From: a virus | Reading direction: 5' to 3' (one strand) | Length of the DNA stretch: 41,531 bases | Virus genome (UHGV): UHGV-0397187 | In this document: positions 2,738 to 15,338 of the stretch, piece after piece | Position numbering within the stretch: position 1 is the first letter of the stretch | Layout: each line of letters starts with the position of its first letter | Made by a program: the position numbers and the translations under genes | The notes under the pieces: model-generated | Seen by the model: the letters and a program-made list of their open reading frames with translations, nothing else | Database searches by the model: none | Told to the model about the DNA's origin: nothing

Positions 2738-3547
2738 TTATTCTTCTGAATTATCGATTACACTGTATTCCCCGGTTAATACAGAGGAGTCTGCCGGATC
2801 GATTGTCAGTGGTTCCTTTTCATCCATTGATACTGCACGCTGGATTTCAATTGAGACAGGCAGGTATTTAAACAGGCGACGAATAGCCGTTTTTTTTGCC
2901 ATTTCTTCCCAGTGAGTTACCCATGGCCCGTTATTACCAGCCTTACTCTGGCTGCGCACCAGTTCAATCTGTTTGCGCGTCATAACTTCAAACTGAGTCC
3001 CTCCGTCTTTCAGTCTTGCGACAGCATAGACGTGGGTCACTGGTGCATCTTCGTTTTCTCCCGGGCGGTGTATTAACTTTTCATCAAGGCCAAATTCAAA
3101 ACTAAACTCGTCACCTTCACGGACAACACGGGCTGACAGGCTGGCGATTTGACCAGAACGGCGAGCCAGATCAATCATGCCGCGATAACCAATGATTAGC
3201 TGAACGTTCTTTTTACCGCTCTTTTCGTTTTTATTACCAAAAGGCAGTAAATATGCGTGGCCGAGGGCGCTACCTGGCTCAAGGCCGAGCTGTGAACACT
3301 GAACGATCGCACTGACAAAACTCATGGTGTCACAGTTTCCTAGCGCCGGAACCTTACGAATTTCTGTGGTGGCGATACGTATCATTCGTTCAGCCGTCAT
3401 ATGGCGTGGGAGAGCTGCTGCCAGTTGCTCTTTCATTGATGGCTGATTAATAAAGCTGATCACGTCGTTATTTTTTACTGCTGCTGGTGCACGGTTTCCC
3501 TGGGTTTTTTGCAGATCGGCTTTTGCGATAGGTGGTTGCTTAGTCAT
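2738..3547 (-). CDS. recT: RecT single-strand annealing recombinase
   Basis: From [32 protein letters not shown]... the translation matches my recollection of E. coli Rac RecT essentially throughout. Confidence 0.95.
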
Positions 3548-6173
3548 TTGCATACTCCTTAGCCCAGCGGGGCAGTGATAACGTTTTAATAGCTGGCCAT
3601 TCATCGGTATTCAGGCAGTCAGCCAGGGTCCTCAGATTGCGGTGATATTCCTGCTGGCCTGCCAGTTTTGCTTCTTCGCCCATCATGAAAATCTCAACCG
3701 GGTAACGTCCGCATTCAACAGTTGTGCTGGCAACCAGAAAAACGAAAGTTGGCAGCACGCCAAACTGTGCTTCATAACCGTCACTGTAGAATGCATCCTG
3801 AACGTGATAGCGGTAGTCGTAATAAGCCGTTTTGAATCGTTGAATATCCGCTGTGGTTTTCACGTCCATGATCCAGTGAAATTCAGGAATAATTTTGTCC
3901 GGACGGCACCGACACAAAATTCCTGTTTCCGGATCTTCCCAGTAAATTGATGATTCAGCGTGTCCGGCGCTTTCAACAAGCCATTGCCCCAGCGGCAAAG
4001 CCATAACGCTTTGATACATGAGTTCAATTTTCCGGCCTTCTTCCGCAGTGATAACCGTTTTTCCTGTGCTTGCGCATTCCATCAGAAACGCTTTCTCTTC
4101 TTCTTTTCCGGCGTTTGTACGGCGGTTAAATTCAGGTGCTACGATAAAGCGGTTACTGAATTCTTCCGGTTCAAGTACCCGGCAGTGGAAAGCGGTTCCT
4201 AAATCGAGCGTTTTTGTCTTTGTAGTGTCCACGGGGGCATTTTTACGCCACAAATACAGTGCCGGAGTATCAGCAATGTCATCGAGCTGAGACTTACTGA
4301 CACCGGGACCCGCGTGGTAATTCTCATTCGAAATTCCGTAATAAATACCTGGCTCTATGTCTTCTACGATTACGGGATCTGCGACTTCGCCAGTTTCATC
4401 ACTGCAATCGCGATGCGGATCGCTGCCAGCATTCTCATTGTGCGGATGTTCAGCGCCTTCCATTTCCTCCGGATCTTTTTCCTTAGCTTCAACCTGATTC
4501 TCTTCACCGAATGTTTCCTGGTATGTTGCGTCGCCCATCACCGCACCACAGTCAGGGCAGTTATCCCCGCCAGTCTGACCGCAGGCATTGCAGACTATTT
4601 CCGGTTCCTGTTGCACTACTGGCTCAGGTTGTTTCGCATCCGGGCTGATTTTTTCCGTTTCTGGCTGGTTCTGGTACACAGAATCGCGAGTCTGGATCCC
4701 CTTAACCCATTTCGGATCGTTCGGGTCGCTAATCCCTTCAACAAATTCTCCGCGAGAGGCAGCCAGTAATTTGTCTGCATCGACAGGATTTTTGGGCGGA
4801 ATGTTTTTCCGGGCTTCATGGAGTTCTGCCCGCAGTTTCTGATATTTCGCATCAACAGAATTTACCTGTGACTGAGCATCCAGCGACTGCGTGTCCTGAT
4901 GATGTTCAGTTGCATCCGGTTCCACTGTTTCAGCCGTTGCCTGTTCATCTGCCATTGCGCAAGATGGTTGCAGTTTTTCTTCATCATCCTGTTTTTCTTC
5001 TTCTGTTACACGCTGCGGCATCGGGGCAGAGGAACGACCGCAGGCAATATCCACGATTTCTGGATCAGGGTTGGCATGATCAGTTTCAGTCAGTACTTTG
5101 TTCAGATATTCAGTGACGTGTGCGGGGATAACCTCGATCCCAATTGGTGCTTCTTTTACGGACGCAACCACGATGGCGCGGGAATAATCCAGCCCACCAG
5201 GCATGGTGATGAATTTGTCGCGGAAAACAGAAAAGGGTGGTTTATTTTCAGCGATAATTTCCTCGACACGTTTAGCGTGTGCCGGATGAAGGTTATAAAT
5301 GTCCACGTCCATTGAACGAGCCAGTACGCCAGTGGCTACGTCGCGCGCCAGTGACGTCAGATCGTGAACGAAACCTTCGCCGCGATCGGTGAGGTTCCCG
5401 CCGCCAGCATTAGCGCCGGAAGCCGTGCGCGTGATGCGTGAAACACGATTTCCTTTCATCCACTCTTTTGTCAGCAGACCGCGATCGGTGTAGTCTGCGT
5501 CCAGGTATGCTTCGAAAAAAGCAGTCATCAGCCCCAGGCTTGAATTGCCTGGATTAGGGAAAACTCTGTCAGTATCACGCACCAGTTTGTGGAGATCGCG
5601 AATTTCCAGCGGGTCGAGCAGGCTGGTTTTGTGGGAAACAGCCAGGGCAGTAACAGCTGGTAGTTCTTCAGCTCGTGCAATGTGTAATGCCTGTAGTTCG
5701 TCGCGTGAAACGTGCGTTACCGGTTTTTCGCTGCCGTGTTGAGCAAGCCAGCGAATGGGCAGCTCCTGACCGGAAATCGGGAGTAGCATATTCTCCTCAA
5801 TCTCCGTCATGTCTTCGCCATTAACATTGGTATTGTCAGTGCTGGCTGGTTTGTCCTGCGCAGAGGATGAGGGCGCGATAAATACCATTGTGATGCCATC
5901 TTCCCCGCCTTTTTCGTAACGGTTGCAGAATTCCGTATCAAATACGCCTTCTGGTGGAAGGTCATCAACAACGGGCAAATTGACGCGAACAGGTTTTTTA
6001 AAGTCATCTTCATCGTAGCCAGCATCGTCAATCGCAACAGCACCACGGGAGATGGCAATGGATAATTTTTTCGCTTCAGCCCAGTAGAAACCGCCTTTAA
6101 TACCGAGACGTTTTCTTACTTTGTCATTTTTTGCTTCGTAATACAGTGGGTAAACTTGTTTATCGGTGCTCAT
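3540..6173 (-). CDS. recE: RecE exonuclease VIII
   Basis: 877-aa ORF; long stretches ([45 protein letters not shown]..., C-terminal ...[14 protein letters not shown]) match Rac RecE as recalled; N-terminal ~100 aa differ. Confidence 0.95.
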
Positions 6174-10911: not shown

Positions 10912-11673
10912 ATGGAGACTGTTTTTGATGCACTGAAAGCAATGGGAAAAGCCACATCCATAGAACTTGCTGCGCGACTTGATATCAGTCGTGAAGAAGT
11001 GCTGAACGAACTATGGGAACTGAAAAAAGCTGGTTTCGTTGATAAAAGCGCGTACACCTGGCGTGTGGCTGATAACAACGTTCAGCAGGAACAGCCAGCG
11101 CCAGAAGAACAGCCGGAAGAAACCACCACGGCGACAGTAGCGAAAATCTCAGAGTGCGATTTAACCGCGACGATTGAACAACGCGGACCACAAACGGCGG
11201 ATGAACTGGCTACGCTGTTCGGTACAACATCCCGCAAAGTGGCTTCAACGCTGGCAATGGCAATCAGCAAAGGTCGTCTGATTCGCGTAAATCAGGGCGG
11301 TAAATTTCGTTACTGCATACCGGGCGATAATTTACCAGCAGAGCCGAAAGCTGCATCGGTAGCGGAAACTGATGGTAAAGCCTTTCCTCAGCCTGCATGT
11401 GTTGCGTTACCAGTACAGGAGGCTGCAACACAGGAAGATATTAAAACAGAAACTGTGGCGGACATTGTGCAGTCGCTGCCATCGTTCACCGAAACGCGAG
11501 CGGATGACCTGATTTTACCATCGCTGCATATGGCAAACCGCGAACTGCGTCGGGCGAAAAGTCATGTCCAGAAGTGGGCGCGAGTCTGCGCCGCGCTGCG
11601 GGAGCTGAACAAGCACCGGGATATTGTTCGACAGATTACTGATTCTTCCCGCCGTGTTGTATCGGAAAAGTGA
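10912..11673 (+). CDS. winged-helix DNA-binding protein (DUF1627-like), start uncertain
   Basis: [45 protein letters not shown] is a winged-helix-like N-terminus; the ORF could start at 10861 instead. Confidence 0.5.
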
Positions 11674-11688
11674 TTGCCGGAGGCACTT

Positions 11689-12111
11689 ATGGCAAAAGTA
11701 TTTACACAAGAAGAGCGGGAAAAAATTAAAGGGCAGGTTGTTGAGCTAGTACGCCGGAGTGGGCGCGAGACGTTACGGCAACTGGAAGCCAAGACAGGTG
11801 CGACAAGATATCTGATGAGCGTTCTCGCCAGAGAGCTTGTTGCCAGTGGCGATGTATACAACTCTGGTTACGGGTTATTTCCGTCTGAACAGGCCCGTAA
11901 GGACTGGCAAAACGCCCGCAAAAAACTATCCAGGGCAAAGGTGAAAAAAACGGTTGTGGTTGATCCTGACCTTATCTGGTCATTACCAGACGGAGAAATA
12001 CGCCGCTACGACAGGCGTCTGAACATAATCTGTCGCGAGTGCCGGAAGAGCGAAGCTATGCAGCGTGTACTGGCTTTCTATCAGGGTAATTTTCAGGAGG
12101 CGGTACTGTGA
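11689..12111 (+). CDS. hypothetical protein
   Basis: ORF with ATG at 11689 preceded by ccggagg RBS (the track start at 11674 is a TTG). Confidence 0.5.
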   Translation: MAKVFTQEEREKIKGQVVELVRRSGRETLRQLEAKTGATRYLMSVLARELVASGDVYNSGYGLFPSEQARKDWQNARKKLSRAKVKKTVVVDPDLIWSLPDGEIRRYDRRLNIICRECRKSEAMQRVLAFYQGNFQEAVL

Positions 12112-12168
12112 GTGAAATTAGCTATCAGGCTTCAATTGCCGCTGGCATTCGCATCAAAGGAGAGGAGC

Positions 12169-12525
12169 ATGGAAATAAAACCAGAAGATGAGTTAAGTAA
12201 TATTGTTTTATTTCCGGTAAAAGAGGATGACCCACGTAATCAGGTTAATTTTCTTTATGAGCCATCGGAAAGACCATATTGTCATCACGCCTCTGTCCGG
12301 GTTGACGAAAAAGAGCGTCAGGTCCGCTGTAAAATCTGCGGTGCAGTTGTGGAGCCATTTGACCGGATGCTCTCTGTGGCGAAAAGAGAAACCAGACTGG
12401 CAGATGATGTAAGGCTATTGCGTCAGGAGGAACAGGAAAGGCGAAAAAATATAGAAAAGCTAATTCAGATTGAGCGTAACGCGAAAGCGCGGATAAGCAG
12501 GGTGACAAAATCAAGAACTGAATAA
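12169..12525 (+). CDS. hypothetical protein with zinc-ribbon-like Cys/His motif
   Basis: ATG at 12169 after aaaggagaggag RBS (the track start at 12112 is a GTG); CHH...CKIC motif. Confidence 0.5.
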   Translation: MEIKPEDELSNIVLFPVKEDDPRNQVNFLYEPSERPYCHHASVRVDEKERQVRCKICGAVVEPFDRMLSVAKRETRLADDVRLLRQEEQERRKNIEKLIQIERNAKARISRVTKSRTE

Positions 12526-12618
12526 TTTAAATTTAGCACTGTTAAAAATTTAATCCTTAACCGGAGGGATTTCTGCACCATCAGAACATCAGGAGTCCGC
12601 CCGAAAGGGCGGTAAGAA

Positions 12619-12837
12619 ATGACTACATTATTCAGAAAAGAATATCCGCGAAGAAGTAGAACGACAGAATTTTTGTTTCTCATTCTGTTTATCGTGTTGA
12701 TGACACCGATATCCCCGCTAATTTTTGTCTGGGCAATCGGGAAAATAATTGAGCCAGTTATTGAATTGTATAACGACGTGGTATGGGCGTCGTTCAACAC
12801 ACTGCACAATAAAATTAATCCGTATAAGGAAAGCTGA
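12619..12837 (+). CDS. small membrane protein
   Basis: FLFLILFIVLMTPISPLIFVWAIG is a hydrophobic stretch consistent with a transmembrane helix. Confidence 0.45.
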   Translation: MTTLFRKEYPRRSRTTEFLFLILFIVLMTPISPLIFVWAIGKIIEPVIELYNDVVWASFNTLHNKINPYKES

Positions 12838-12838
12838 T

Positions 12839-13270
12839 ATGACCACTATTACCACTATTACCAGAGAAAACGCGGAGATTAAATCATTCATCACTGGTTT
12901 CCTGAGCGACCCGGCGCACGATAACCAATCTTCAGACAGCCTGCTTGCCAATGTGTTTCGTATCGCGCTGGCTTCGCTGGAAGCAGAACCAGTTGCATGG
13001 ACTGATGATGAGGAACTGCGTGATGTCAAGCAGTATGGTCTCGGTGAGATATTTCAGTGCCCGCCAGATAAATACGCAGACTCGCGTCGTGTAATTCCGC
13101 TGTATCGTGTGCCGCCAGCTTCCATGGTGCAGGCACAGGGCATAGAGATTGCAATAAACGAACTGGTGGCTCTGTCCCCACGCTTGGATAAACAGGCGGT
13201 GGAAACTCTTTCTATGGCTGTGGAACATTTACGCAAACTGGTTAAGAAGCAGTTGCAGACTAAGGACTAA
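12839..13270 (+). CDS. paralogue 1 of a three-member family (conserved N-terminal motif, variable C-terminus)
   Basis: MTTITTITRENAEIKSFITGFL...FRIALASLEAEPVAW; shares MTT.T start and (I)ALASLEAE motif with the genes at 13274 and 14231. Confidence 0.6.
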   Translation: MTTITTITRENAEIKSFITGFLSDPAHDNQSSDSLLANVFRIALASLEAEPVAWTDDEELRDVKQYGLGEIFQCPPDKYADSRRVIPLYRVPPASMVQAQGIEIAINELVALSPRLDKQAVETLSMAVEHLRKLVKKQLQTKD

Positions 13271-13273
13271 CCC

Positions 13274-13717
13274 ATGACCACTATTACCAAAGAACGTATT
13301 GAATTGTTCATTAAAAATCCGCTTGAAAACGGGCTTGCTCGTAGCGAACAAATGGAAGTGGCACGGATCGCTTTGGCATCGCTGGAAGCAGAGGCAGTTA
13401 TGTTCTGTATATCAGGACAAAATGTAGATTCAGAAGAACATGTATCAACCAGCAAAGCGGTTGTTGATGCCTGGGTTGAAGAATGGAATCAGGTTGACGG
13501 AAGTCCTGGCGAACCACTGTACAAAACTATGCCACTCTACTATCACGCTGCCTTGCCAGCGCCGGTAGTGCCTGAAGGGCTGGTTAAAGCGGTGCGTTTT
13601 TATGAGCAGGTAAAAAATGAGAATCCGGCAGTCGAAACCGTAGCATGGAAAGACGCTGTTGACTGGGTTCTCGAAGAGGCTTGTCAGGCTGTAAACATTG
13701 GCATCAAAGGAGAGTGA
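13274..13717 (+). CDS. paralogue 2 of the three-member family
   Basis: MTTITKERIELFIKNPLENGLARSEQMEVARIALASLEAEAVMF. Confidence 0.6.
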   Translation: MTTITKERIELFIKNPLENGLARSEQMEVARIALASLEAEAVMFCISGQNVDSEEHVSTSKAVVDAWVEEWNQVDGSPGEPLYKTMPLYYHAALPAPVVPEGLVKAVRFYEQVKNENPAVETVAWKDAVDWVLEEACQAVNIGIKGE

Positions 13718-13718
13718 T

Positions 13719-14234
13719 ATGGCGTTAACACACCACGAACTCTGTCAGATTGCGTACAAGTTCCTTAAGCGCAACGGGTTCAAGGTTTGCTTTCATGACC
13801 GCTTTGTTGCTGTAACCAGTACCGGAGAACAGCCAGATGCTATGGGATTCAGAAATTCAGCATCATGCCTGATAGAGGCGAAGTGTTCTCGTGCTGACTT
13901 GTTGGCAGATAGAAAAAAGCGTTTCCGTAAAAATCCCTCACTTGGCATGGGCGACTGGCGATTCTTTATTAGTGAGCCGGAAATTATTTCAGTTGAGGAT
14001 TTACCTCCCGGCTGGGGATTACTTCACGTTGTTAACGGAAGAGTACGGAAAGTACATGGATGGCCCAGGGGTAATTGCTGTTGGGGTAATCCTGACGATA
14101 AGCCATTTACCGGGAATAAGCAGGTTGAATGCGATTACATGTTATCTGCATTAAGGCGCATGGAGCTAAGAGGACACCTTAATGAAATATATGACGGTGT
14201 AATTGTTAATAAGAAAGAAGGAAACGCAGCATGA
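13719..14234 (+). CDS. putative PD-(D/E)xK-type nuclease-like protein
   Basis: ATG at 13719 after aaaggagag RBS; GEQPDAMGF...LIEAKCSRADL gives a PD ... E-x-K arrangement; weak motif-level inference. Confidence 0.4.
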   Translation: MALTHHELCQIAYKFLKRNGFKVCFHDRFVAVTSTGEQPDAMGFRNSASCLIEAKCSRADLLADRKKRFRKNPSLGMGDWRFFISEPEIISVEDLPPGWGLLHVVNGRVRKVHGWPRGNCCWGNPDDKPFTGNKQVECDYMLSALRRMELRGHLNEIYDGVIVNKKEGNAA

Positions 14235-14608
14235 CCACTTTAACCGACAAAGAACTGATTAAAGAAATCAGAGAGCGAATCGGCAGCCTGGACGTCCGAG
14301 ACAATATTGAGCGTCGGGCTTATGAAATTGCTCTGGCATCACTGGAAGCAGAAGCGCCAAATTTGCCTGGTGGTTTCACCATTGAGGATGCGAAGGAGTT
14401 ACATGAAGACCTGGTACGCAGCCACATAAGCCAGGCTTTAAGTGGCGAGAAGATGAAAAAGAAAGATCGTGATGCTGATTTGCTCTGGATTCATGGCGTT
14501 ATAGTACAGGCAGCGTGGTTTGTGAAAGCCTCACTGGATGCGTTGCCTGAACCGCTGCGGGAGGAGAAGGGAGGAAGTCCAACTGAAGAAAGTGAAGCCG
14601 GACTGTAA
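14231..14608 (+). CDS. paralogue 3 of the three-member family
   Basis: MTTLTDKELIKEIRERIGSLDVRDNIERRAYEIALASLEAEAPNL. Confidence 0.6.
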   Translation: MTTLTDKELIKEIRERIGSLDVRDNIERRAYEIALASLEAEAPNLPGGFTIEDAKELHEDLVRSHISQALSGEKMKKKDRDADLLWIHGVIVQAAWFVKASLDALPEPLREEKGGSPTEESEAGL

Positions 14609-14946
14609 ATTACCGAGTAAGGCGATGGACTACCTGAAGCGAAACGGGCTGACAAGCGTGGAGGATATTTTACGATGACCTGGCCTGAGGCATTCACCAC
14701 GGTAGGAATTGCAATGGCGGTGGCGCTGGTGGTGTATTCGATTTGCCGCTGGGGATAAAAACGGTTTGCGGGAAAAGGAGAGTTAAGTAGAATTGCAGCG
14801 GGTGCTTGAGGCTATCTGCCTCGGGCATGAACACCAACGGCAGATAGATAAAAGCCCCACCCGACTATAAATCGAAGTGAGGCCCCTATATGCTCGTCAC
14901 ATATAGATTGCCTCTTACGGACCGAAAGGTCAAGGAGAAGCAGGCT

Positions 14947-15102
14947 ATGAAGCAGCAAAAGGCGATGTTAGTCGCCCTGATCGTCATCTGTTTAACCGTC
15001 ATAGTGACGGCACTGGTAACGAGGAAAGACCTCTGCGAGGTACGAATCCGAACCGGCCAGACGGAGGTCGCTGTCTTCACAGCTTACGAACCTGAGGAGT
15101 AA
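14947..15102 (+). CDS. hok: Hok/Gef-family type I toxin
   Basis: MKQQKAMLVALIVICLTVIVTALVTRKDLCEVRIRTGQTEVAVFTAYEPEE: hallmark Hok sequence; aaggag RBS; in-frame upstream extension from 14890. Confidence 0.9.
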   Translation: MKQQKAMLVALIVICLTVIVTALVTRKDLCEVRIRTGQTEVAVFTAYEPEE

Positions 15103-15171
15103 GAGACCCGGCGGGGGAGAAATCCCTCGCCACCTCTGATGTGTCAGGCATCCTCAACGCACCCGCACTTA

Positions 15172-15196
15172 ACCCGCTTCGGCGGGTTTTTTGTTG
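15172..15196 (+). terminator. intrinsic terminator after hok
   Basis: acccgc-ttcg-gcgggt followed by ttttttgtt. Confidence 0.75.
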
Positions 15197-15338
15197 CGCG
15201 CTGAATACGCAGGGTGAAAAATAACCATATATTTGATTATATACACAACAAAAAATAAAAGTCATTGCACCTGCACATTAAATAATCAAATATACGACGT
15301 GAAATAAATATTTTTCAGATTAATATTTTTGTCTCTAT

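What the first reader, a model, noticed from the sequence alone, without database searches (positions are those of the whole stretch)
12839..14608. Tandem array of three paralogues with conserved N-terminus and divergent C-termini, interleaved with a PD-(D/E)xK-like gene
The genes at 12839, 13274 and 14231 all start MTT(I/L)T and share a (I)ALASLEAE motif about 35-45 residues in, then diverge completely. That pattern suggests a common interaction module fused to diversified specificity or effector domains. Between paralogues 2 and 3 sits a gene (13719-14234) with a PD...E-x-K nuclease-like motif. I cannot place the family. Conserved head with variable tail is typical of anti-defence or polymorphic effector families.
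Basis: partly seen in the sequence, partly recalled or inferred. Interest (0 to 1): 0.75.

Follow-up and report, generated by a model that had tools for sequence, protein, structure and literature searches.

The report
Mosaic EaA-type prophage accessory genes
Three neighbouring prophage genes share a short conserved N-terminal "head" already known from phage P22 EaA, and they belong to a large, heavily shuffled family of early lambdoid-phage accessory proteins of unknown function, so this is an ordinary new instance of a known kind.

Summary
Genes at 12839, 13274 and 14231 share a ~40-50 aa head (MTT(I/L)T ... IALASLEAE). A PD-(D/E)xK-fold gene sits between the second and third.

The family can be placed. 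The head is that of Salmonella phage P22 EaA and HK620 HkaE. Elsewhere it is fused to DUF551, to a dATP/dGTP pyrophosphohydrolase domain, or to unnamed bodies. Its bodies also occur behind Ead/Ea22-type heads.

The proteins are strings of small modules, head, middle and tail. The modules are joined by conserved linkers: LEAE(P/A)V, and PLY..PP.PVVPE. Mosaic breakpoints against other genomes fall on these linkers to within a few bases.

The three heads are distinct alleles. Each is closer to heads in other phages than to its neighbours, so the array was assembled by recombination, not local duplication.

Arrays of two or three head genes recur in the same slot (DUF977-DUF4014-[heads]-hok). The family also sits in the PL "ea" region of P22-like phages.

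The interleaved gene is a divergent MmcB-like nuclease-fold protein. It also occurs without head genes in other genera.

Function remains unknown. No evidence for or against an anti-defence role was obtained. Verdict: a new member of a known mosaic family, of modest interest.

The parts
12619..12837 (+). DUF4014 small membrane-protein gene; left landmark of the variable slot
   Evidence: phrog_1832 E=2e-45. Annotated DUF4014 in E. coli PEC148. Precedes head genes in many PR-type loci.
12839..13270 (+). P1, 143 aa: head (aa 1-50), middle module 'PVAW...VIPLYRVPP' (aa 51-~106), helical tail
   Evidence: The middle (aa 41-97) matches pieces of 'EaA protein' genes in other phages at 84%.
12838..12863 (+). 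9-bp tandem repeat (2.9 copies) at the 5' end of P1, giving MTTITTIT instead of MTTIT
   Evidence: TRF; self-BLAST.
12962..12994 (+). Junction motif 1 of P1 (IALASLEAEPV)
   Evidence: 83% DNA identity to the P2 copy; invariant residues.
13274..13717 (+). P2, 147 aa: head (aa 1-40), middle (aa 41-~100), tail (aa ~101-147)
   Evidence: BLASTP boundary histogram. Alignment A4 shows independent swapping of head, middle and tail. AF2 secondary structure shows pLDDT dips at 39-41 and 90-97.
13367..13399 (+). Junction motif 1 of P2 (IALASLEAEAV); recombination breakpoint
   Evidence: Identity to PEC148, P22 eaA and HK620 hkaE ends at 13392/13393. Identity to plasmid locus L002 starts at 13376. 81 of 257 HSP ends fall in 13390-13409.
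13532..13576 (+). Junction 2 of P2 (PLYYHAALPAPVVPE), a proline-rich linker between middle and tail
   Evidence: Protein breakpoints cluster at aa ~101. DNA HSP starts (18) and ends (8) fall at 13570-13579. pLDDT is below 50 at residues 90-97.
13719..14234 (+). MmcB-like PD-(D/E)xK-fold gene, 171 aa; putative catalytic D40 (13836-13838), E53 (13875-13877), K55 (13881-13883)
14231..14608 (+). P3, 125 aa: head (aa 1-41) joined directly to a C-terminal body (aa ~45-125)
   Evidence: Head is 83-95% identical to EaA-type heads in HK022, YYZ-2008 and Stx phages. Body aa 45-103 occurs separately in Stx phages at 93-97%.
14327..14353 (+). Junction motif 1 of P3 (IALASLEAE)
   Evidence: 85-86% DNA identity to the P1 and P2 copies. 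100% identity with PEC148 resumes at 14362.
14890..15188 (+). hok/gef toxin gene and its terminator; right landmark of the slot
   Evidence: PF01848 E=1.7e-23. Terminator-like hairpin at 15171-15188. hok follows head genes in PR-type loci.

Best explanation
The three genes are co-resident members of a large mosaic family of early accessory proteins of enterobacterial lambdoid prophages. The family is defined by the N-terminal head first seen in P22 EaA and HK620 HkaE. Each protein is a string of small modules that probably fold independently. The head is about two helices and ends in IALASLEAE(P/A)V. Then come one or more middle modules that often end in PLY..PP.PVVPE, and then a tail.

Shown: the linkers are conserved at the amino-acid level, and mosaic breakpoints fall on them.

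Inferred: the linkers give 11-18 nt of shared DNA in frame. Phage recombinases that tolerate divergence can use this to swap modules without breaking the reading frame. This prophage encodes RecE and RecT. The array arose this way. Relative to the nearly identical prophage in E. coli PEC148, a block 'P2 body - nuclease gene - P3 head' lies between two junction motifs. This converts one head-to-body gene into two genes plus the nuclease gene.

Inferred, low confidence: by analogy with lambda Ea22, the head acts as a common oligomerisation or partner-binding module. It would present varied, acidic small domains to host or phage targets early after infection or induction. Ea22 has an oligomerising N-terminal part and interchangeable C-terminal domains, and it biases the phage toward lysogeny.

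The interleaved gene is a separate MmcB-like nuclease-fold gene of the nin region. It is physically linked to a head gene in E. coli-type phages but is not an obligate partner.
For: Family placement:
- tblastn of P2 hits P22 eaA, HK620 hkaE (DUF551) and many 'EaA protein' genes through residues 1-42/63 (annotations).
- Head DNA is 89-91% identical to P22 and HK620.
- P3's head matches EaA-type genes of Stx phages and HK022.
- P22 EaA is head + PF04447 + DUF551.
- P2's body occurs behind PF13935 Ead_Ea22 heads, and P2's head plus middle occurs in front of DUF551.

Modularity:
- Protein breakpoints cluster at aa 32-43 and ~101 of P2.
- In A4, the P1-type and P3-type heads appear on P2's body, and P2's head and tail flank at least 7 different middles.
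- The AF2 model shows helices, a strand/helix unit and helices, separated by low-confidence dips exactly at the two junctions.

Junctions as breakpoints:
- PEC148 is 99.9% identical up to 13393 and 100% identical from 14362. P22 and HK620 identity ends at 13392/3. L002 identity starts at 13376.
- 81 of 257 HSP ends fall at 13390-13409.
- Codon entropy jumps from under 1 bit to about 1.8 bits two codons after EPV.
- EaA-type and Ead/Ea22-type heads share only the last ~10 residues..L..LEAEPV.
- The residues after the motif are PV, PI or AV in 100 of 113 representatives.

Protein-level selection on the motif: first and second codon positions are invariant while third positions vary.

Recombinases: RecT and RecE are encoded at 2741-6173. 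Red and Rad52-like recombinases recombine diverged DNA through short identical patches (PMC2327257, PMC3945230). The short-boundary-sequence model is cited in PMC3029335.

Not a local duplication: the heads are only 41-52% identical to each other, but 83-95% identical to heads elsewhere.

Recurrence: 42 loci are in the PR slot and 29 in the PL 'ea' region. One, two or three head ORFs per locus occur in 53, 27 and 5 loci.

Ea22 analogy: its mosaic organisation, tetramerisation and pro-lysogenic effect are described in PMC10834534 and PMC7093339. All three window proteins are acidic, pI 4.6-5.1.
Against: - No experiment or annotation assigns a function to the EaA head or to any of the three bodies. 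Pfam, NCBIfam, PADLOC and PDB sequence searches are empty.
- The P2 model is low confidence (pLDDT 61.5), so module boundaries rest mainly on comparative data.
- The locus sample was selected by similarity to the head. That guarantees similarity stops somewhere near its end; only the sharpness and reuse of the point are informative.
- Breakpoints at domain linkers can also arise from random illegitimate recombination followed by selection for folded proteins. The data do not separate that from microhomology-guided exchange.
- The Ea22 analogy is indirect. The EaA head shows no detectable similarity to the Ea22 N-terminal or coiled-coil region beyond the junction motif.
Confidence: 0.65

Rival explanations
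1. Polymorphic anti-defence (or host-takeover) effectors. A constant head would target or assemble the proteins, and diversified bodies would each neutralise a different host defence or competitor.
For: - Hundreds of different bodies sit on one head.
- The genes lie in early operons within hypervariable accessory slots.
- The proteins are acidic.
- One family member, P22 EaA, carries a nucleotide pyrophosphohydrolase domain.
- Several copies per phage are common.
Against: No similarity to any characterised anti-defence protein was found, and no anti-defence library was available. The only functional data for a related mosaic protein, Ea22, concern the lysis-lysogeny balance (PMC7093339, PMC10834534). 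High diversity can result from relaxed constraint in non-essential regions.
Confidence: 0.2
2. A functional unit. The nuclease-fold protein would be the effector, and the head proteins its regulators or specificity subunits, for example in a prophage-encoded defence or toxin-antidote module.
For: In 8 of 9 loci that contain the nuclease-like gene, its stop overlaps the start of a head gene, as it does in the window. The nuclease gene plus P3 head travel as one DNA block.
Against: - 76 of 85 head loci lack the nuclease gene.
- In Providencia and Pectobacterium prophages it sits next to RusA or NinG with no head gene.
- No PADLOC match.
- Its closest relatives are MmcB-like repair proteins.
Confidence: 0.07
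3. Local tandem duplication of one gene, followed by rapid divergence of the C-termini.
For: Three same-strand neighbours have similar starts.
Against: - The heads are 41-52% identical to each other.
- P2's head is 89-91% identical in DNA to P22 and HK620.
- P3's head is 93-95% identical in protein to heads in HK022 and YYZ-2008.
- The bodies are unrelated and are found elsewhere on other heads.
- PEC148 differs by a block replacement bounded by junction motifs.
Confidence: 0.04

Closest known systems
Salmonella phage P22 EaA and coliphage HK620 HkaE (annotated 'EaA protein' / 'DUF551 domain-containing protein')
   Same: Same N-terminal head. P2 residues 1-42 are 88% identical in protein to HK620 HkaE. 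DNA is 89-91% identical to P22 and HK620 and ends at the LEAE motif. Same beads-on-a-string build with PLY..PP linkers. Early operon, function unknown.
   Different: EaA carries PF04447 and DUF551, and HkaE carries DUF551. None of the three window proteins has either domain. EaA and HkaE lie in the PL 'ea' region between abc2/ead and xis/int. The window genes lie in the PR operon between the replication genes and hok.
Lambda Ea22 / Ead-Ea22-like family (PF13935), mosaic variants in Stx phages
   Same: Documented mosaic build with a shared N-terminal part and interchangeable C-terminal domains (PMC10834534). P2's middle and tail occur behind PF13935 heads at 89-95% identity. Those heads end in the same ..LEAE(P/A)V junction.
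   Different: The window heads do not match PF13935. They share only about 10 residues with such heads. Ea22 has a long coiled coil and a pro-lysogenic phenotype, and nothing comparable is known here.
MmcB-like DNA repair proteins (PF06319; Caulobacter MmcB; PDB 3DNX)
   Different: The Pfam model does not detect it, and identity to 3dnx is only 24%. It has extra C-terminal helices, and its setting is a prophage nin region rather than an SOS regulon.
Short conserved boundary sequences in lambdoid mosaicism (Susskind & Botstein 1978; Clark et al. 2001, as cited in PMC3029335)
   Same: Short conserved sequences sit at module boundaries, and exchange occurs there.
   Different: Here the boundaries lie inside genes, in frame. 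They encode conserved peptide linkers under amino-acid-level selection, rather than intergenic or gene-end sequences.

Membership tests
EaA-type head family (P22 EaA / HK620 HkaE N-terminus; phrog_660, phrog_5117, phrog_3323) | N-terminal ~40-50 residues homologous to the EaA/HkaE head, starting at residue 1 | tested here: met
   PHROG hits for all three. tblastn hits to P22 eaA and HK620 hkaE. P3's head matches EaA-annotated genes. The head profile finds the match at residues 1-42/49 in nearly all of 150 listed representatives.
EaA-type head family | Head ends in the (I)AL(A)SLEAE(P/A)V junction, followed by an unrelated module | tested here: met
   Invariant in the three genes. Conserved in 57 unique DNA contexts, with an entropy jump after EPV.
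Ead/Ea22-like (Pfam PF13935) | Match to the PF13935 model above its gathering score | tested here: not met
   No hit at E<=0.1 for P1, P2 or P3. hhalign of head sets aligns only the last 10 residues.
DUF551 (Pfam PF04448) | C-terminal DUF551 domain | tested here: not met
   No hit for P1, P2 or P3. DUF551 is present in 27 of 117 other head-bearing representatives.
PD-(D/E)xK nuclease superfamily (interleaved gene) | Restriction-endonuclease-like alpha/beta core with conserved D ... (D/E)-x-K | tested here: met
PD-(D/E)xK nuclease superfamily (interleaved gene) | Metal-dependent nuclease activity | not testable with these tools
   Needs purified protein and D40A/E53A/K55A controls.
MmcB-like (Pfam PF06319) | Match to the PF06319 model above its gathering score | tested here: not met
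Known anti-phage defence systems (PADLOC-DB) | Match to any PADLOC model | tested here: not met
   No hits for the four proteins or their two upstream neighbours.
Anti-defence proteins | Homology to a characterised anti-defence protein, or rescue of phage on a defended host | not testable with these tools
   No anti-defence library was available, and no relevant PDB sequence match was found.

The most novel reading that the evidence does not exclude
The LEAE(P/A)V and PLY..PP.PVVPE linkers may form a dedicated in-frame domain-shuffling grammar. Lambdoid phages would use it, with their own recombinases, to generate combinatorial accessory proteins. The shared heads of co-resident copies would hetero-oligomerise, so that one phage displays several effector bodies on one scaffold. 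This would be a polymorphic host-takeover or anti-defence hub, with array expansion happening by insertion of 'body-gene-head' cassettes between junction motifs.
Probability: 0.12. Interest if true: 0.65.

Novelty: new member of a known kind. Interest (0 to 1): 0.3.

Why it matters
The finding links an apparently orphan gene array to the EaA / Ea22 / DUF551 group. This is one of the most abundant uncharacterised gene sets in E. coli and Salmonella prophages, including Shiga-toxin phages: parts of the region match 3801 of 5426 complete E. coli genomes. It also gives a clean, base-level example of in-frame module exchange at conserved linkers, which bears on the old question of whether phage mosaicism uses short homologies or random joining plus selection. 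It reveals no new mechanism or function.

Tried and rejected
- **Family and structure searches.** Pfam, NCBIfam and PADLOC scans of the three proteins gave nothing. PDB sequence searches gave nothing.
- **P2 model.** AF2 confidence was too low (pLDDT 61.5) to justify a fold search, so only its secondary-structure segmentation was used.
- **AlphaFold DB search.** The afdb50 library was unavailable.
- **First profile search with the head.** It listed only short, partial proteins. It was useful for names but not for architectures.
- **Capsid-targeting idea.** I considered that the head might be a capsid-targeting or protease-cleaved leader like the T4 internal-protein leader, because LEAE resembles an L-x-E cleavage site (from my own knowledge). 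I rejected this. The genes are early, and the head occurs in phages with unrelated head-assembly modules: P22-like, Stx and Rac-like.
- **ClpX degron idea.** An N-terminal ClpX recognition signal was considered, but the sequence does not fit the known pattern and it could not be tested.
- **Concerted evolution.** Gene conversion among the three copies was rejected because the heads are only 41-52% identical.
- **Internal regulation.** There are no above-chance promoter or terminator signals inside the array.
Full report
**1. What is there**

The window is an enterobacterial lambdoid prophage of the Rac type.
- The left arm carries an integrase, RecT and RecE.
- Then come a repressor region, YdaT, a DnaC-like ATPase, DUF1627 and DUF977.
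- Further right are a hok toxin gene, DUF1367, YbcO and a Q-like DUF1133 gene, followed by lysis and structural genes.

Between DUF977 and hok lies a tightly packed run on the + strand:
- a zinc-ribbon ORF (12112-12525);
- DUF4014 (12619-12837);
- P1 (12839-13270, 143 aa);
- P2 (13274-13717, 147 aa);
- a 171-aa gene (13719-14234);
- P3 (14231-14608, 125 aa).

Gaps are 1-3 nt, or an ATGA overlap. No promoter-like or terminator-like signal above chance lies inside the run. A hairpin terminator follows hok.

**2. The observation**

The three proteins share M-T-T-(I/L)-T and an invariant IALASLEAE.
- Pairwise BLASTP is only moderately significant: 3e-6, 0.002 and 0.006.
- Independent PHROG profiles cover the whole head in all three. 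phrog_660 gives 1.5e-21, 6e-37 and 8.5e-13, and phrog_5117, phrog_3323 and phrog_60 also hit.
- No other copy of the head is in the window.

Beyond the motif the sequences are unrelated, apart from a PLY..PP element in P1 and P2.

**3. Placing the family**

Pfam and NCBIfam have no model for these proteins. tblastn against phage genomes does place them.
- P2's first 42-63 residues match P22 EaA, HK620 HkaE (annotated DUF551) and many 'EaA protein' genes (annotations).
- P3's head matches EaA-type genes in Stx phages, HK022 and P27.
- P1's middle matches pieces of 'EaA protein' genes.
- P22 EaA itself is head + dATP/dGTP pyrophosphohydrolase (PF04447) + DUF551.

A full-length search with P2 gave 3425 relatives. 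In some, P2's middle and tail follow an Ead/Ea22 head (PF13935). In others, P2's head and middle precede DUF551.

The mosaic nature of Ea22 in Stx phages is already published, including a DUF551 variant. So are its oligomerisation (tetramer) and its pro-lysogenic effect (PMC10834534, PMC7093339, PMC8614690).

An exhaustive HMMER search with the head profile found 447 representatives of 50%-identity clusters at E<=1e-3, and 246 at E<=1e-10.
- The head is almost always at residues 1-42/49.
- Protein lengths range from 48 to 457 aa.
- Of 117 representatives of 100 aa or more, 27 carry DUF551, 2 carry PF04447 and 88 carry nothing known.

The exact motif occurs in Escherichia, Shigella, Enterobacter, Citrobacter, Trabulsiella and Edwardsiella.

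**4. Anatomy: beads on a string**

BLASTP boundaries of P2 against its relatives cluster at residues 32-43 and at about 101.

Alignment A4 shows the modules swapping independently:
- P1's head on P2's body (P0123);
- P3-type heads on P2's body (P0126, P0129, P0132);
- P2's head and tail flanking at least seven unrelated middles.

Modules can also be repeated or stacked (P0196, P0231).

The AF2 model of P2 is low confidence (pLDDT 61.5), but its segmentation fits this picture:
- helices at 6-14 and 23-38;
- a confidence dip at 39-41;
- a strand-strand-helix-strand unit at 42-89;
- a dip at 90-97;
- helices at 101-115 and 123-145.

The family consensus shows the recurring linkers LEAEPV, LY.APP.PV.P and AAML...N.P..PD.W. 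All three window proteins are acidic, with pI 4.6-5.1.

**5. The junctions are recombination joints**

BLASTN of the region against related loci gives base-level breakpoints.
- The E. coli PEC148 prophage is 99.9% identical from 11501 to 13393, the last base of the LEAE codons of P2. It is 100% identical again from 14362, three codons after LEAE of P3. In between it has a different 330-bp segment.
- P22 eaA identity (89%) ends at 13393, and HK620 hkaE identity (91%) ends at 13392.
- A phage-plasmid locus (L002) with an Ead/Ea22-type head starts matching at 13376.

The 18 nt at 13376-13393 (GCATCGCTGGAAGCAGAG) are therefore shared by otherwise different heads and bodies.

Across 85 loci, 81 of 257 HSP ends fall in 13390-13409. 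HSP starts pile up at 13570-13579 (the PVVPE linker) and at 14360-14369.

Codon-wise entropy over 57 unique sequences shows two things.
- IALASLEAEPV is fixed at first and second codon positions but varies at third positions. The peptide, not just the DNA, is under selection.
- Diversity jumps to near-random two codons after EPV.

EaA-type and Ead/Ea22-type heads resemble each other only in the last ten residues. After the motif come PV, PI or AV in 100 of 113 representatives.

This matches the 'short conserved boundary sequence' model of lambdoid mosaicism (cited in PMC3029335), here operating in frame inside genes. It also fits the ability of Red and Rad52-like recombinases to recombine diverged DNA through short identical patches (PMC2327257, PMC3945230). 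The prophage encodes RecE and RecT.

One caveat applies. The loci were selected through the head, so some boundary near its end is expected. Selection for intact domains after random joining could produce the same pattern.

**6. Origin of the array**

The three heads are 41-52% identical to each other. Each is 83-95% identical to heads in other phages. The copies are therefore separately acquired alleles, not local duplicates.

Compared with PEC148, the window carries the block 'P2 body - nuclease gene - P3 head' between two junction motifs. This turns a single 231-aa gene (P2 head ... P3 body) into two genes plus the nuclease gene, or the reverse.

**7. Context and recurrence**

Of 85 loci:
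- 42 carry the head genes in the same PR slot (DUF977 / zinc-ribbon / DUF4014 - heads - hok);
- 29 carry them in the PL 'ea' region (abc2 - eaE - ead ... xis - int);
- 14 were ambiguous or lacked landmarks.

With a broader head profile, 53, 27 and 5 loci have one, two and three head ORFs respectively. Some of these are 55-aa head-only ORFs.

The exact window arrangement is absent from 5426 complete E. coli genomes at 80% coverage or more. Parts of it occur in 3801 of them.

**8. The interleaved gene**

It has 308 homologues across Enterobacterales and no Pfam assignment.
- D27, E37, D40, E53 and K55 are invariant.
- The AF2 model is good (pLDDT 87, pTM 0.81).
- 3dnx is also the top, though non-significant, sequence-profile hit, aligning the D..IE.K.SR.DF.AD motif. 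It belongs to PF06319, MmcB-like.
- BFVD matches include phage 'MmcB-like DNA repair' proteins.
- MmcB is described as a PD-(D/E)XK endonuclease linked to mitomycin C and cross-link tolerance (PMC9578287).

In 8 of 9 loci where this gene is present, its stop overlaps the start of a head gene. However, 76 of 85 head loci lack it. In Providencia and Pectobacterium it sits beside RusA or NinG with no head gene. I treat it as an independent nin-region nuclease-fold gene that hitch-hikes with a head in E. coli-type phages.

**9. Function**

Nothing here or in the literature I could read assigns a function to the EaA head or to these bodies.

My best inference is by analogy with Ea22. The head is a common assembly or partner-binding module, and the bodies are interchangeable small acidic domains acting on host or phage targets early in infection or induction. 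I rate this at about 0.3.

The anti-defence reading stays open at about 0.2. A nuclease-centred functional unit is unlikely.

**10. Verdict**

But the family is a known, named, functionally uncharacterised mosaic group, and the 'paralogues' are recombination-assembled alleles. This is a new member of a known kind, of modest interest. The linker-precise breakpoints are the most useful by-product.

Noticed in passing
window 12838-12863: A 9-bp tandem repeat (TATTACCAC, 2.9 copies) at the 5' end of P1 adds three residues, giving MTTITTIT. The identical sequence is present in E. coli PEC148, where RefSeq annotates the start 9 nt downstream of the ATG.
   Followed up: partly
window 14675-14758 (and 14538-14678): Between P3 and hok lies a 27-codon ORF for a hydrophobic peptide (MTWPEAFTTVGIAMAVALVVYSICRWG). 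Its ATG overlaps the stop of a preceding short ORF (ATGA). The block 14580-14850 is conserved in many related loci.
   Followed up: no
window 14890-15188: A Hok/Gef toxin gene (PF01848) with a strong hairpin terminator at 15171-15188. Two promoter-like sites lie on the minus strand at 15236-15318. No sok/antisense RNA was tested for.
   Followed up: no
window 12112-12525: A conserved zinc-ribbon ORF (phrog_1621, E=9e-53; weak TFIIB-type Zn-ribbon hit) precedes DUF4014 in many PR-slot loci. Its function is unknown.
   Followed up: no
window 12619-12837: The DUF4014 small membrane protein matches phrog_1832, whose PHROG label is 'released from the phage upon host infection'. That is an odd label for an early-operon gene.
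   Followed up: no
L010, L014, L020, L025, L026 (about 6001-6165 in L010): 55-aa 'head-only' ORFs (head plus 13 residues) recur, and similar 55-aa proteins are widespread (P0018, 65 member sequences on 30 contigs). They may be recombination remnants or functional mini-proteins.
   Followed up: partly
L088, L089, L102: Metagenome bins labelled Segatella copri and Collinsella sp. contain short contigs with enterobacterial EaA-type heads at 89-90% identity in L088 and L089 (46% in L102). This looks like binning contamination.
   Followed up: no
L002 (plasmid pPRO_A-1504-6M-A_3) and hits H3-H15: P2's body, the nuclease-like gene and a P3-like gene occur on ~52-64 kb circular E. coli plasmids. In the one inspected (L002) they lie beside mobilisation, HicAB and XF1762-family genes. 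The family is therefore not confined to integrated prophages.
   Followed up: partly
window 12500-14900: Parts of the region match 3801 of 5426 complete E. coli genomes, up to 12 places per genome, but no genome has 80% or more of it in one place.
   Followed up: partly
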